Below are positions 57,601-60,600 of a DNA stretch of 64,000 nucleotides, one piece after another (position 1 is the stretch's first letter; every line of letters starts with the position of its first letter). Under the pieces are notes generated by a model, which had not been told where the DNA came from, made no database searches, and saw only the letters and a program-made list of their open reading frames with translations. Source of the DNA: the human T2T-CHM13v2.0 reference genome, Homo sapiens; assembly GCF_009914755.1 (NCBI RefSeq), contig NC_060941.1; one strand, written 5' to 3'. A program made the translations under genes and the position numbers.

Positions 57601-60600
57601 AGGCGTGGTGGTACATGCCCGTAGTCCCAGCTACTTGAGAGGCTGAGGCAGGAGAATGGCTCGAACCTAGGAGGTAGAGGTTGCAGTGAGCCAAGATCGG
57701 GCCATTGCACTACAGCTTGGGTGACAGAGCAAGACTCCGTCTCAAAAAAAAAAAAAATTGAAAATACCGTAAGTAGAAATGCATCAGGTTATAACCCAAT
57801 AAGCCCATCATGAAGTTGAAAAATTGTAAATTGAACCATTGTAATTCAGATGCTTCTTGATTTAAGATGGGATTATGTCCTGATAAACCCATCATAAAGC
57901 CAAAACATCTTAAATTAAACCATCCTAAGTCAGGGACAGTCTGTAGGTAGTCCAGAATTGAAGTGAATTAGTGGATACCCAGCTGGCATCTACTGTAGAA
58001 TTGACTGCTTACCTGATGTGTGTGGTAAGACCCCACCCATCTGGTATCAGAATTGTGTTGTGAGAGTGTGGCAGGAGAAACTGAGTCTGTTTATTCCTGT
58101 ATACACACAGGGCTTCGTGCTGTGTCACTCCATCGCTGGGGGTACGGGTTCTGGCCTGGGCTCCTACCTCCTGGAGCGACTGAATGACAGGCAAGCCTGT
58201 GTTTGGGGAGAGGGCATTAACCCTGGTTCCCTGAGTAATGTCATTGCTTTTTTCTCTTGAGCTAGAAAGTCTGCCACTACCCCTTTTGAGTCATAGGGAC
58301 AGACCCACCCAAGGACCATGTTGGAAGCTATTTTGGGGGGTGGGGGTTTACCTGTGGAGGGGAGGGGATCTACAGAGTTTGAAGCTTTCAGGCTTATCCT
58401 TTTTGGCTCTGAAGACTCAGTTCTGCCCTCACCCCTTTTGTACAAAATGGCACATATGGGCAGTGATGGAGGGGTCCTTCCGGTTCACTATGCCACCATC
58501 CTCTTTTCTCTCAGGTACCCCAAGAAGCTAGTGCAGACTTATTCAGTGTTTCCCTACCAGGACGAGATGAGCGACGTAGTGGTTCAGCCCTACAATTCAC
58601 TCCTGACACTCAAGAGGCTGACGCAGAACGCAGATTGTGTGGTGAGCAAAGAAAGAGTTGAGGGGCTGGGTGTGGTGGCTCATGCCTGTAGTTCTAGCAC
58701 TTTGGGAGGCCTAGGCAGATGGATTGCTTGAGCTCAGGAGTTCAATACTAGCCTGGGCAACATGTGAAACCCTATCTCCACAGAAAATACAAAAATTAGA
58801 GCTGGGTGCGGTGGTTCACACCTGTAATCCCAGCACTTTGGGAGGCTGAGACGGGCGGATCACCTATGGTTGGGAGTTCGAGACCAGCCTGACCAACATG
58901 AAGAAACCCCATCTCTACTAAAAAAACAAAATTAGCCAGGCGTGGTGGCGCATGCCTGTAGTCCCAGCTACTCGGGAGGCTGAGGCAGGAGAGTTGCTTG
59001 AACCTGGGAGGTGGAGGTTGCAAGGAGCTGAGATTGCAGCATTGCACTCCAGCCTGGGTGACAGAGCGAGACTCTGTCTCAAAAAAAAAAAAAAAATTAG
59101 CCAGTCCTGGTAGCATGTGCCTGTAGTCCCAGCTACTTGGAGGCTGAGGCAGGAGAATCACTTGAACCCGGGAGGCAAAGGTTGCGGTGAGTCAAGATCA
59201 CACCATTGCACTCCAGCCTGGGTGACAGAGCGAGACTCTGCCTCAAAAAATAACATAAAAAAAAATTAGCCGGGCATGGTGGCATGTGCCTGTAGTACTA
59301 GCTACATGGGAGGCTGAGGTGGGGGGATTGCTTGAGCTCAGGAAGTCGAGGCTGCAGTGAGCCATGATCACACCACTGCACTCCAGCTTGGGCAACGGAA
59401 CAAGACCTTGTGTTTAAAAAAAAAAAAAAAGGGTAGAGGACTTTGGTCTGTCTCCTCAGGCCAGTGAGTCTCATTCACCCCACCTTTCCTCAGCCCCTAT
59501 ACACACAGACAGAAGACCAACAAAGCCATACCTGTGGGCCAAATTAGGAAATAAGGTCCTGACTTCTAAGTTTCTTAGAATCCTTTTAGGCAGCAAAACT
59601 CTCAACAAAGTGAATATACCTTCCCCACACCACCACGTATCCCACCTTTGCCTACTTAATGCCCACTCATGCTTGTATTCTTAGCTCAAGGATAACTTTC
59701 TTAGCAAAACCCTTCCTGACTACTCAGTCAAGATCAGATTCCTATATGTGTATTTTAGGGAGTTAACTATAATTTTCTGTTTTATATTTAGTGTGCCTCC
59801 CTCCACGAGACTATAGGCCTAATGAAGGGAAAGACGGTGCCTGTTCCTCTCTGTGGTCTTCCCAGAGCCAGGCACAGTGTATGGCACATGTGGGTACTCA
59901 CGTGTTTGTTTACTGCCCTGCGTAGTCCGAGAGTATCTCATGGTGCCCCAGAAACAGTACTTTTCTTTTTATTTTTTATTTATATTTATATATATATATA
60001 TGTATATATATTATATATATTTATACTTTTTTATTTATATTTTTTACAGAGATGGCATCTTGCTGTGTTGCTCAGGCTGGTGTCCAACTCCTGGCCTCGA
60101 GTGGTCCTCCCACCTTGGCCTTGGGATTACAGGCCTGAGCCACCATGCCCAGCAGTACTTTTATTTTATTTTATTTATTTTATTTTATTATTTTATTTTA
60201 TTTTTGAGACGGAGTCTTGCTCTGTCCCCCAGGCTGGAGTGCAGTGGCATGATCTTGGCTAACTGCAAACTCCGCCTCCCGGGTTCATGCCATTCTCCTG
60301 CCTCAGCCTCCGAATTAGCTGGGACTACAGGCGCCCGCCAACATGCCTGGCTAATTTTTTGTATTTTTAGTAGAGACGGGGTTTCACCGTGTTAGCCAAG
60401 ATGGTCTCGATCTCCTGACCTTGTGATCCGCCCGTCTCGGCCTCCCAAAGTGCTGGGATTACAGACATGAGCCACCGCGCCCGGCCTCAGTACTTTTTTT
60501 TTTAAACTAACAAACCTACTTCCTGGCTTTGGAGTTCAGCAGGGGCTAAGCCAATATCTTATTTCTATACCCATTTTATCCTCAAGATGCTGTGATGCTC

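What the first reader, a model, noticed from the sequence alone, without database searches (positions are those of the whole stretch)
58081..58200. TUBG2 exon 5 is weak at both ends (LTR-derived acceptor plus GC donor): candidate skipping/NMD dosage switch
Seen: the TUBG1 donor CAG|gtaagt corresponds to CAG|gcaagc in TUBG2, a non-canonical GC-AG intron with a further +6 change; the following tgtgtttgggga confirms homology. The exon is 80 nt. Skipping shifts the frame through exons 6-7 to TGA at 60876-60878 in exon 8, with three junctions downstream, so an NMD substrate is expected. The exon encodes the GTP-binding GGTGSG loop. Inference: transposon-initiated weakening could give TUBG2 a tissue-tunable, post-transcriptional off switch that TUBG1 lacks. 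I recall that a TUBG2 exon-skipped variant has been reported; I cannot confirm it is this exon.
Basis: partly seen in the sequence, partly recalled or inferred. Interest (0 to 1): 0.75.

Follow-up and report, generated by a model that had tools for sequence, protein, structure and literature searches.

The report
TUBG2 exon 5: LTR acceptor, GC donor
The exon of human TUBG2 that encodes the GTP-binding loop has a rare GC splice donor and an acceptor supplied by the end of an old retroviral LTR, but nothing available here shows that it is skipped as a regulatory switch.

Summary
The sequence observation holds. TUBG2 exon 5 (58111-58190, 80 nt) ends CAG|gcaagc where TUBG1 has CAG|gtaagt. Skipping it gives TGA at 60876-60878 with three junctions downstream. 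The exon encodes GGTGSG.

The "LTR-derived acceptor" is also supported. A dispersed repeat fills 56223-58107 and ends 0-3 nt before the exon. A nested DNA-transposon-like insert with two Alus splits it. A relic of the ancestral acceptor (tccccatgcTGgg; TUBG1 has tccccatgcAGgg) lies 1.9 kb upstream at the repeat's left edge. A chrX pair of sister copies flanks a retroviral-type RT remnant.

"Weak at both ends" is true only relative to TUBG1. By U1 pairing and pyrimidine content, both sites fall inside the range of the other 19 introns of the two genes.

The skipping/NMD dosage switch is untested. No reads were available, no held paper describes exon 5 skipping, and Ohashi 2016 ("two splice variant mRNA") was not held.

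Most likely this is a constitutive exon with rebuilt, compensated splice sites, and skipping is a minor by-product. Interest is modest.

The parts
58111..58190 (+). TUBG2 exon 5, 80 nt, phase 0. It encodes [26 protein letters not shown](R), including the GGTGSG loop.
   Evidence: 11 of 80 nt differ from TUBG1 exon 5 (7572-7651), and all 11 are synonymous.
58191..58196 (+). GC 5' splice site of intron 5 (CAG|GCAAGC).
   Evidence: It matches 7 of 9 consensus positions (mismatches at +2 and +6). U1 duplex is -6.3 kcal/mol against -12.1 for TUBG1 CAG|GTAAGT.
58198..58209 (+). Intronic block tgtgtttgggga (+8..+19) with a G-run, identical in TUBG1 (7659-7670). Candidate intronic enhancer for the donor.
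   Evidence: Paralog homology by blastn stops at 58209/7670. The enhancer role is inference.
58080..58110 (+). Functional acceptor region of exon 5: branch-site candidates, interrupted pyrimidine tract and the AG. All but the last 1-3 nt are LTR sequence.
   Evidence: Pyrimidines number 13 of 20 at -23..-4 and the longest run is 5 (TUBG1: 15 of 20, run 10).
56223..57097 (+). Left part of the LTR-type repeat copy (5'-truncated relative to sister copies).
   Evidence: 28 of 55 non-self rows start at window 56230-56232 and none earlier. Searches show colinearity with sister copies. Searches show that sister copies extend further 5'.
57944..58107 (+). Right part of the same LTR-type copy. Its terminal ...ACACA abuts cag|GG of exon 5.
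   Evidence: the two parts are adjacent (gap -3 to 31 nt) in 26 of 27 distinct genomic copies. No alignment passes 58111, and the commonest end is 58107.
57098..57943 (+). Nested insert flanked by TA (57096-57097 and 57944-57945), starting CAG and ending CTG. It looks like a DNA transposon and carries two + strand Alus (about 57166-57765).
   Evidence: Sub-terminal inverted repeat 57113-57150 / 57860-57897, 79% complementary. The family name was not determined.
56177..56222 (+). Relic of the ancestral intron 4 3' end and acceptor. tccccatgcTGgg is at 56210-22, where TUBG1 has tccccatgcAGgg.
   Evidence: local alignment score 18 against shuffles 11.65 +/- 1.72; best match of the last 60 nt of TUBG1 intron 4 anywhere in 11000-63900, rank 1 of 2645 windows, 17.5 against 7.18 +/- 1.45.
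56218..56222 (+). CTGGG, the left copy of the 5-nt direct repeat flanking the insertion. The right copy is CAGGG at 58108-58112.
   Evidence: Read. It looks like a target-site duplication that included the CAG|GG acceptor. The left junction may have been remodelled.
60876..60878 (+). TGA reached if exon 5 is skipped.
56339..56365 (+). 27-nt alternative exon listed by RefSeq, lying inside the LTR. It is in frame and encodes LQNSSRVIK.
   Evidence: Hub annotation.
7572..7657 (+). TUBG1 exon 5 and its GT donor, used as the paralogous reference.

Best explanation
Exon 5 of TUBG2 is a constitutive, essential exon whose two splice sites were both changed after the TUBG1/TUBG2 duplication.

Shown:
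- An endogenous-retrovirus LTR sits exactly at the 3' splice site.
- The old pyrimidine tract and acceptor now lie 1.9 kb upstream, and their AG has become TG.
- Splicing must therefore use a branch site and pyrimidine tract supplied by the LTR's 3' end, plus a CAG at the LTR/exon junction.
- Sister LTR copies mostly end in a T-rich run followed by CA. The element end therefore resembles a 3' splice site once a G follows it.
- The 5' site is GC instead of GT. Every other core position from -3 to +5 is consensus.
- A G-run block conserved with TUBG1 follows the donor, and the downstream intron is short (324 nt).

Inferred:
- These features compensate for the weakened sites, so exon 5 is included in most transcripts.
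- Exon 4-6 joining occurs at a low, noise-like level, and NMD removes the product.
- Together with LTR-internal decoy sites, this mildly lowers productive output. It is not a dedicated switch.
For: Donor and frame:
- The GC donor and the frame/PTC arithmetic are confirmed.

The repeat at the acceptor:
- The repeat is dispersed in the genome: 40 candidates scored of 516, 77 and 179.
- Its two halves are adjacent in 26 of 27 distinct sister copies, and none extends past 58111.
- The ancestral acceptor relic ranks 1 of 2645 windows, z about 7.
- 55845-56230 has no other genomic match, as expected of the original unique intron.

LTR nature:
- Two chrX copies lie 13 kb apart on the same strand, are 88.1% identical over 876 nt, and have unrelated flanks.
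- A + strand ORF between them hits RVT_1 at 3e-9, 37.3 bits against a cut-off of 29.6.
- All 11 PDB hits of that ORF carry reverse-transcriptase, polymerase or Gag-Pol labels, among them the MMLV RT entries.

Site strength:
- 25 of 30 sister copies have a pyrimidine run longer than 5 in their last 40 nt (median 8); the window copy has 5.
- The donor's U1 duplex of -6.3 kcal/mol lies within the -4.5 to -12.6 range of the 20 donors.
- The acceptor's pyrimidine count of 13/20 is third lowest. The exon 8 acceptors of both genes score 12/20.

Annotation and literature:
- RefSeq's selected transcript uses the exon. The three extra exons listed for the other three transcripts are not exon 5 variants (hub table).
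- GC sites make up under 1% of donors, carry stronger consensus elsewhere, and GT>GC conversions outnumber the reverse 298 to 40 in mammals (PMC2490688, whole text).
- Natural GC exons rely on enhancers (PMC3167603, passages).
- Exons 4-6 lie outside the concerted-evolution tracts (PMC3250491 passages).
- TUBG1/2 tissue differences have been attributed to diverged upstream regulation (PMC2720389 passages) and to transcriptional down-regulation (PMC3250491).
Against: - No expression data could be examined, so the inclusion level is inferred, not measured.
- The strength measures are crude (U1 duplex, pyrimidine counts). MaxEntScan and SpliceAI were not available. U1 pairing does not capture the later cost of C at +2. 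A published MaxEnt value for the best-case CAG/GCAAGU is only 3.1 (PMC3167603 passage).
- Relative to TUBG1, both sites and also the exon 4 donor (5/9 against 8/9) are clearly weaker.
- GC-AG genes are more prone to alternative splicing (PMC7242645 abstract and section 17).
- A human paper's title states that TUBG2 has two splice-variant mRNAs. I did not see its content.
- A mouse long-read preprint reports a Tubg2 isoform that lacks a phosphoserine and a GTP-binding motif. The full isoform is neuron-specific.
- SON-depletion studies list TUBG2 among affected transcripts (PMC3258111 passage).
- The left LTR junction is not canonical, because the copy lacks the family's 5' end.
Confidence: 0.6

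Rival explanations
1. The weak acceptor and GC donor make exon 5 a regulated cassette. Tissues or states low in particular splicing activators skip it, and the frameshifted mRNA is destroyed by NMD. This would give TUBG2 a post-transcriptional dosage control that TUBG1 lacks.
For: - The PTC geometry fits NMD.
- Both sites are weaker than in TUBG1.
- GC donors are enriched in alternatively spliced genes, and one worm case shows a GC donor is required for regulated splicing (PMC2490688; PMC7242645).
- TUBG2 is strongly tissue-biased towards brain (PMC2720389).
- A mouse Tubg2 isoform lacking the GTP-binding motif is reported outside neurons (preprint passage).
- The title of Ohashi 2016 says there are two splice-variant mRNAs.
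Against: - No junction evidence was seen. RefSeq's extra exons do not indicate an exon 5 skip (hub table).
- Abou Alezz et al. found GC-AG introns preferentially in alternative 5' site events. The one human TUBG2 event with coordinates is an alternative 5' site in intron 3.
- The sites are within the range of constitutive sites of the same genes.
- Published explanations for the tissue bias are transcriptional.
- The mouse isoform's exon structure is not given. It would be independent of this LTR if the LTR is absent from mouse, which I could not test.
Confidence: 0.12
2. The main consequence is not exon 5 skipping but other unproductive processing. This would include retention of the short intron 5 behind the GC donor, and use of splice or polyadenylation signals inside the LTR-laden intron 4. 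TUBG2 output would then be lowered constitutively.
For: - Intron 5 retention gives a stop at the 50th codon counted from the start of exon 5, 23 codons into the intron.
- Intron 5 is only 324 nt, which favours intron definition.
- RefSeq lists a 27-nt exon inside the LTR (56339-56365) and an exon ending at the LTR/transposon junction (57094) (hub table).
- Intron 4 grew from about 378 nt to 2266 nt.
- SON depletion affects TUBG2.
Against: No read-level data were available. The extra RefSeq exons may be rare. The polyadenylation-like motif in the LTR was only seen by eye and not tested.
Confidence: 0.2
3. The repeat end next to the exon is a coincidence of alignment. On this view the acceptor is ancestral sequence and the upstream 'relic' is a chance match.
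For: - Paralog introns have been diverging for over 100 My, so lack of homology upstream of 58108 alone proves nothing.
- The local alignment was reached or exceeded by at least one of 300 shuffles (maximum 19.5 against 18).
Against: - 27 distinct sister copies align up to 58069-58111, and two sister copies stop being alike at the same point.
- The relic is the top-ranked match in 53 kb and sits exactly at the repeat's left edge.
- The two repeat halves are colinear in other copies.
Confidence: 0.03

Closest known systems
U2-type GC-AG introns (about 0.8-1% of human introns)
   Same: GC at +1/+2 and AG at the 3' end. The rest of the core 5' site is near-perfect consensus (CAG|GCAAG). The gene has several annotated transcripts, as is typical for GC-AG genes.
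   Different: Nothing unusual for the class. Position +6 is C rather than the consensus U. The intron is the fifth, not the first, whereas the class is enriched in first introns.
Transposable-element-derived splice sites / LTR exonization
   Same: An LTR supplies splicing signals used by a host gene. The same LTR also contributes an annotated alternative 27-nt exon. LTR-derived GC-donor exons are listed in PMC3167603 (passage).
   Different: The LTR does not create a new, usually alternative, exon. It replaced the branch site and pyrimidine tract of a pre-existing, essential, constitutive coding exon by landing on its acceptor. The old acceptor is still recognisable upstream. I found no description of this for TUBG2. 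I ran no search on how common such replacements are genome-wide, and from the one search on LTR exonization I saw only the listing and abstract starts.
Alternative splicing coupled to NMD (unproductive splicing used for dosage control)
   Same: Skipping an 80-nt exon gives a frameshift and a PTC more than 50 nt upstream of several junctions.
   Different: The defining observations are all missing here: the alternative junction, its stabilisation when NMD is blocked, and regulation or feedback.
TUBG1 exon 5 (paralog)
   Same: Same length, phase and encoded peptide. 69 of 80 nt are identical and the +8..+19 intronic block is identical.
   Different: TUBG1 has a GT donor with 9/9 consensus, an intact ancestral acceptor (pyrimidine run 10) and a 283-nt upstream intron without the LTR.

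Membership tests
U2-type GC-AG intron | GC at intron positions +1 and +2, AG at the intron end | tested here: met
   58191-58192 is GC and the intron ends ...tctctcag before 58515.
U2-type GC-AG intron | Otherwise strong match to the U1-complementary consensus | tested here: met
   7 of 9 positions match. All of -3..+1 and +3..+5 match. Duplex -6.3 kcal/mol.
U2-type GC-AG intron | Not a U12-type site | tested here: met
   The donor GCAAGCCT does not match the U12 donor motif as I recall it. The motif comes from memory, not from a call.
U2-type GC-AG intron | The junction is actually used in mRNA | not testable with these tools
   Rests on the hub's RefSeq table (NM_016437.3). No reads were examined.
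Endogenous-retrovirus LTR (solitary copy) | Dispersed multi-copy family with a sharp common 3' end | tested here: met
   Two sister copies lose similarity to each other at the same point.
Endogenous-retrovirus LTR (solitary copy) | Copies occur as direct pairs flanking retroviral genes | tested here: met
   One locus only. The chrX pair is 88.1% identical over 876 nt with unrelated flanks. RVT_1 ORF between them. All 11 PDB hits carry reverse-transcriptase, polymerase or Gag-Pol labels. A tandem pair on chr10 was only 71% alike and uninformative.
Endogenous-retrovirus LTR (solitary copy) | TG...CA termini and a 4-6 nt target-site duplication | tested here: inconclusive
   The window copy starts TG (56223) and ends CA (58107), and is flanked by CTGGG / CAGGG. 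Sister copies extend at least 13 and up to about 70 nt further 5', so the left end is truncated or remodelled. No clean duplications were found in 12 sister copies with my rough boundaries.
Endogenous-retrovirus LTR (solitary copy) | Assignment to a named Repbase/Dfam family | not testable with these tools
   No repeat library is available.
Splicing-coupled NMD dosage switch | The alternative event gives a PTC more than 50-55 nt upstream of a later exon junction | tested here: met
   TGA at 60876-60878, 88 nt before the exon 8 donor, with three junctions downstream.
Splicing-coupled NMD dosage switch | The exon 4-exon 6 junction is observed and rises when NMD is blocked | not testable with these tools
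   No RNA data. No held paper reports it.
Splicing-coupled NMD dosage switch | Regulated across tissues or by feedback | not testable with these tools
   There is only an indirect mouse isoform report without exon detail.

The most novel reading that the evidence does not exclude
An ERV LTR integrated precisely on the acceptor of the exon that encodes gamma-tubulin's GTP loop and duplicated the CAG|GG. The gene survived because the LTR's T-rich, CA-ending terminus could serve as a replacement 3' splice site. That rebuilt acceptor has since decayed. Together with the GC donor, it makes exon 5 inclusion dependent on activators enriched in neurons. Exon 5 skipping plus NMD would then contribute to the brain-biased output of TUBG2.
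Probability: 0.1. Interest if true: 0.6.

Novelty: new member of a known kind. Interest (0 to 1): 0.3.

Why it matters
TUBG2 is the little-understood, brain-biased paralog of an essential microtubule nucleator. If exon 5 inclusion varied, mRNA-level measurements taken in exons 8 or 11 (as in PMC2720389) would misjudge productive TUBG2 output.

The locus is also a clean natural example of a retroelement landing on the acceptor of an essential exon and being co-opted as the new acceptor. The dead ancestral site is still readable beside it. That makes it a useful test case for how much pyrimidine tract and donor strength a constitutive exon can lose. The GC-AG intron itself is ordinary and already annotated.

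Tried and rejected
- Ohashi 2016 and Ahn 2011 are not held.
- Of the first TUBG2 papers found by the searches, the jerantinine paper, the MPLKIP/DBR1 paper and the gamma-tubulin meshwork review mention TUBG2 only as a protein hit, a qPCR reference or a general gene description. They contain nothing on its splicing.
- The CRKL paper's TUBG2 event is an alternative 5' site in intron 3, not exon 5.
- A chr10 tandem pair of the repeat proved uninformative for LTR status: 71% identity, no better than random copies.
- A target-site-duplication search in 12 sister copies gave nothing convincing, because the family's true 5' end could not be fixed.
- RNA folding of 100 nt around the donor puts the GC site in a stem (-37.3 kcal/mol), but the z-score is only -0.93. 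For TUBG1 it is +1.03. I reject this as evidence.
- My first impression that the exon 5 acceptor is the weakest in the two genes was wrong. The exon 8 acceptors have fewer pyrimidines.
- I could not date the GC change or the LTR against other mammals, because no mammalian genome other than this one is reachable.
- I built no consensus of the LTR copies. All comparisons were pairwise.
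Full report
**Observation**

The window is chr17:43462001-43526000 of the assembly held as G000.
- TUBG2 exon 5 is 58111-58190, 80 nt, phase 0.
- It ends ...GACAG and is followed by gcaagc. TUBG1 exon 5 (7572-7651) is followed by gtaagt.
- The paralogous donors differ at +2, +6 and +7. Positions +8 to +19 (tgtgtttgggga) are identical.
- Joining exon 4 to exon 6 shifts the frame and reaches TGA at 60876-60878 in exon 8. 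That is 88 nt before the exon's donor, with three junctions downstream.
- The same skip in TUBG1 would hit TAA at 8098-8100.
- The exon encodes [26 protein letters not shown](R). 11 of its 80 nt differ from TUBG1, all synonymously.
- It is the only GC donor among the 20 introns of the two genes.

**Paralog context**

blastn between the two loci gives these identities:
- exons 2-3 with their intron: 99.2%
- exons 7-10: 96.3%
- around exon 4: 83.7%
- around exon 5: 86.3% (58108-58209 against 7569-7670)
- around exon 6: 90.4%

This matches the literature. The duplication predates the eutherian radiation (PMC2720389 passages). Exons 2-3 and 7-10 are homogenised by gene conversion (PMC3250491 passage). 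Exon 5 therefore lies in the divergently evolving part, where TUBG1 does not overwrite changes in TUBG2.

**What lies upstream of the acceptor**

Intron 4 is 2266 nt in TUBG2 and 283 nt in TUBG1.

Searching the genome with 57766-58110, 57947-58190 and 55845-56600 found many dispersed matches. The first look gave 516, 77 and 179 candidates, and 40 were scored each time.

Pairwise blastn against 27 distinct sister copies (28 locus records; L003 and L010 are the same place) gave three results:
- Window 56223/56231-57096 and 57945-58107 are the two halves of one element.
- In 26 of 27 copies the halves are adjacent, with gaps of -3 to 31 nt. L027 had no left-half hit.
- No alignment runs past 58111. 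Ends range from 58069 to 58111, and 58107 is the commonest.

Two sister copies stop resembling each other at the point that corresponds to 58107.

The 848-nt interruption is flanked by TA and starts CAG and ends CTG. It has a sub-terminal inverted repeat, has its own dispersed relatives and holds two Alus. By my reading it is a nested DNA transposon, but I could not name it.

**Is it an LTR?**

- Two sister copies on chrX lie 13 kb apart on the same strand. They are 88.1% identical over 876 nt, and their flanks are unrelated apart from Alus.
- Between them, on the same strand, an ORF matches RVT_1 at 3e-9 and 37.3 bits, against a cut-off of 29.6. It was one of 50 ORFs scanned, out of 107 listed.
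- All 11 of its PDB hits are labelled reverse transcriptase, polymerase or Gag-Pol, including the MMLV entries.
- That is the anatomy of a provirus, so the family is an ERV LTR.
- The window copy starts TG and ends CA.
- Caveat: sister copies share at least 13 and up to about 70 further nt on the 5' side. The window copy is therefore truncated or remodelled at its left end. The family name remains undetermined.

**The ancestral acceptor**

- The 386 nt before the LTR (55845-56230) have no other match in the genome.
- Their last 46 nt align with the end of TUBG1 intron 4. The local score is 18.0, against 11.65 +/- 1.72 for 300 shuffles with a maximum of 19.5.
- Scanning the last 60 nt of TUBG1 intron 4 plus 3 exon nt over 2645 windows from 11000 to 63900 puts 56141-56260 in ranks 1-3. 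The score is 17.5 against 7.18 +/- 1.45.
- There TUBG2 reads tccccatgcTGgg where TUBG1 reads tccccatgcAGgg.
- The insertion is thus bracketed by CTGGG (56218-56222) and CAGGG (58108-58112). This looks like a 5-nt target-site duplication that copied the acceptor. The upstream copy was later inactivated.
- The integration-at-the-acceptor reading is strongly supported. The exact junction history is inferred.

**Why the gene survived**

In 25 of 30 sister copies the last 40 nt carry a pyrimidine run longer than 5, with a median of 8, before the terminal CA. The LTR end therefore resembles a 3' splice site once a G follows it. The window copy now has a run of only 5, so the tract is poorer than in most relatives.

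**How weak are the sites?**

Donor:
- CAG|GCAAGC matches 7 of 9 consensus positions and has a U1 duplex of -6.3 kcal/mol.
- TUBG1's donor matches 9 of 9 at -12.1 kcal/mol.
- The 20 donors of the two genes span -4.5 to -12.6 kcal/mol.

Acceptor:
- Pyrimidines number 13 of 20, with a longest run of 5.
- TUBG1's acceptor has 15 of 20 and a run of 10.
- The TUBG2 value is third lowest of 20. The exon 8 acceptors of both genes have 12 of 20 and a run of 4.

The exon 4 donor of TUBG2 is also weaker than TUBG1's, at 5/9 against 8/9.

So the exon is weakened relative to its paralog but is not an outlier. These measures are crude. They ignore the catalytic cost of C at +2. The published MaxEnt score for CAG/GCAAGU is 3.1 (PMC3167603 passage).

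Possible compensators are the full consensus at -3..+5 apart from +2, the conserved G-run block, and the short 324-nt downstream intron. Their role is inferred.

**Literature**

On GC donors:
- They make up under 1% of donors and carry stronger consensus elsewhere. They accumulate in mammals, with 298 GT>GC conversions against 40 GC>GT. They are linked to alternative splicing (PMC2490688, whole text).
- About 0.8% of junctions in protein-coding genes are GC-AG. These introns have weaker sites and appear preferentially in alternative 5' site events (PMC7242645 abstract and section 17).

On TUBG2 splicing:
- Four searches found no held paper describing exon 5 skipping or NMD of TUBG2.
- The CRKL study's event is an alternative 5' site in intron 3 (supplement passage).
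- SON-depletion work names TUBG2 among affected transcripts without exon detail.
- Ohashi et al. [quoted passage not shown] It may bear directly on the claim.
[quoted passage not shown] A second isoform lacks a phosphoserine and a GTP-binding motif. The exon structure is not given.

On tissue differences between the paralogs:
- These have been attributed to diverged upstream regulation and to transcription.

**Verdict**

- The structural claim is right and can be sharpened. An ERV LTR sits on the acceptor, and the old acceptor is preserved as a relic.
- The GC-AG intron is an ordinary, annotated member of its class.
- The proposed skipping/NMD switch is arithmetically possible but has no positive evidence here.
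- My odds are about 0.6 for a constitutive exon with minor, noise-level skipping. I give 0.2 for other unproductive processing as the main effect, 0.12 for a real regulated switch and 0.03 for a chance coincidence of the repeat end with the exon, which leaves about 0.05 unassigned.

Noticed in passing
window 56339-56365: The 27-nt alternative exon in RefSeq lies inside the LTR. It is in frame (LQNSSRVIK) and would insert 9 residues between the exon 4 and exon 5 peptides, just before the GTP loop. Its acceptor is ttttgtccttggtttctgaaacag and its donor is gtgaaa.
   Followed up: partly
window 57085-57104: The donor of the RefSeq exon 55851-57094 (cag|gtacag) sits on the junction between the LTR and the nested TA-flanked transposon. 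The nested insertion therefore helped to make that site.
   Followed up: no
window 57582-57764 and 60185-60367: Inverted Alu arms (183 nt, 82% complementary) lie in introns 4 and 6 and bracket exons 5 and 6. Together those exons are 207 nt, which is in frame. The arrangement could favour joint skipping or a circular RNA. Same-intron Alu pairs in intron 6 would compete.
   Followed up: partly
G000:C7:44077396-44077475 (L021): An 85% match starts exactly at the first base of exon 5 and covers all 80 nt, as expected of a processed gamma-tubulin pseudogene.
   Followed up: no
window 55842-55852 and 7286-7296: The exon 4 donor is also degraded in TUBG2: GAG|GTGAAG at 5/9 and -7.0 kcal/mol, against GAG|GTAAGT at 8/9 and -12.6 in TUBG1. 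The whole exon 4-6 block of TUBG2 has poorer signals.
   Followed up: partly
L051:5414-7099 (G000:C23, minus strand): Between the two chrX LTR copies, about 1.6 kb is open in all three minus-strand frames (ORFs of 532, 439 and 368 aa) with no Pfam hit. This is probably low-complexity sequence but is unexplained.
   Followed up: no
window 54958-55455 and 60576-61631: The gene-conversion tracts with TUBG1 (99.2% and 96.3% identity, introns included) end before exon 4 and resume before exon 7. This agrees with the published exons 2-3 and 7-10.
   Followed up: yes
window 58141-58240: The predicted MFE structure pairs the GC donor into a stem. The TUBG1 counterpart is predicted open. Neither energy differs from shuffles (z -0.93 and +1.03).
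   Followed up: yes
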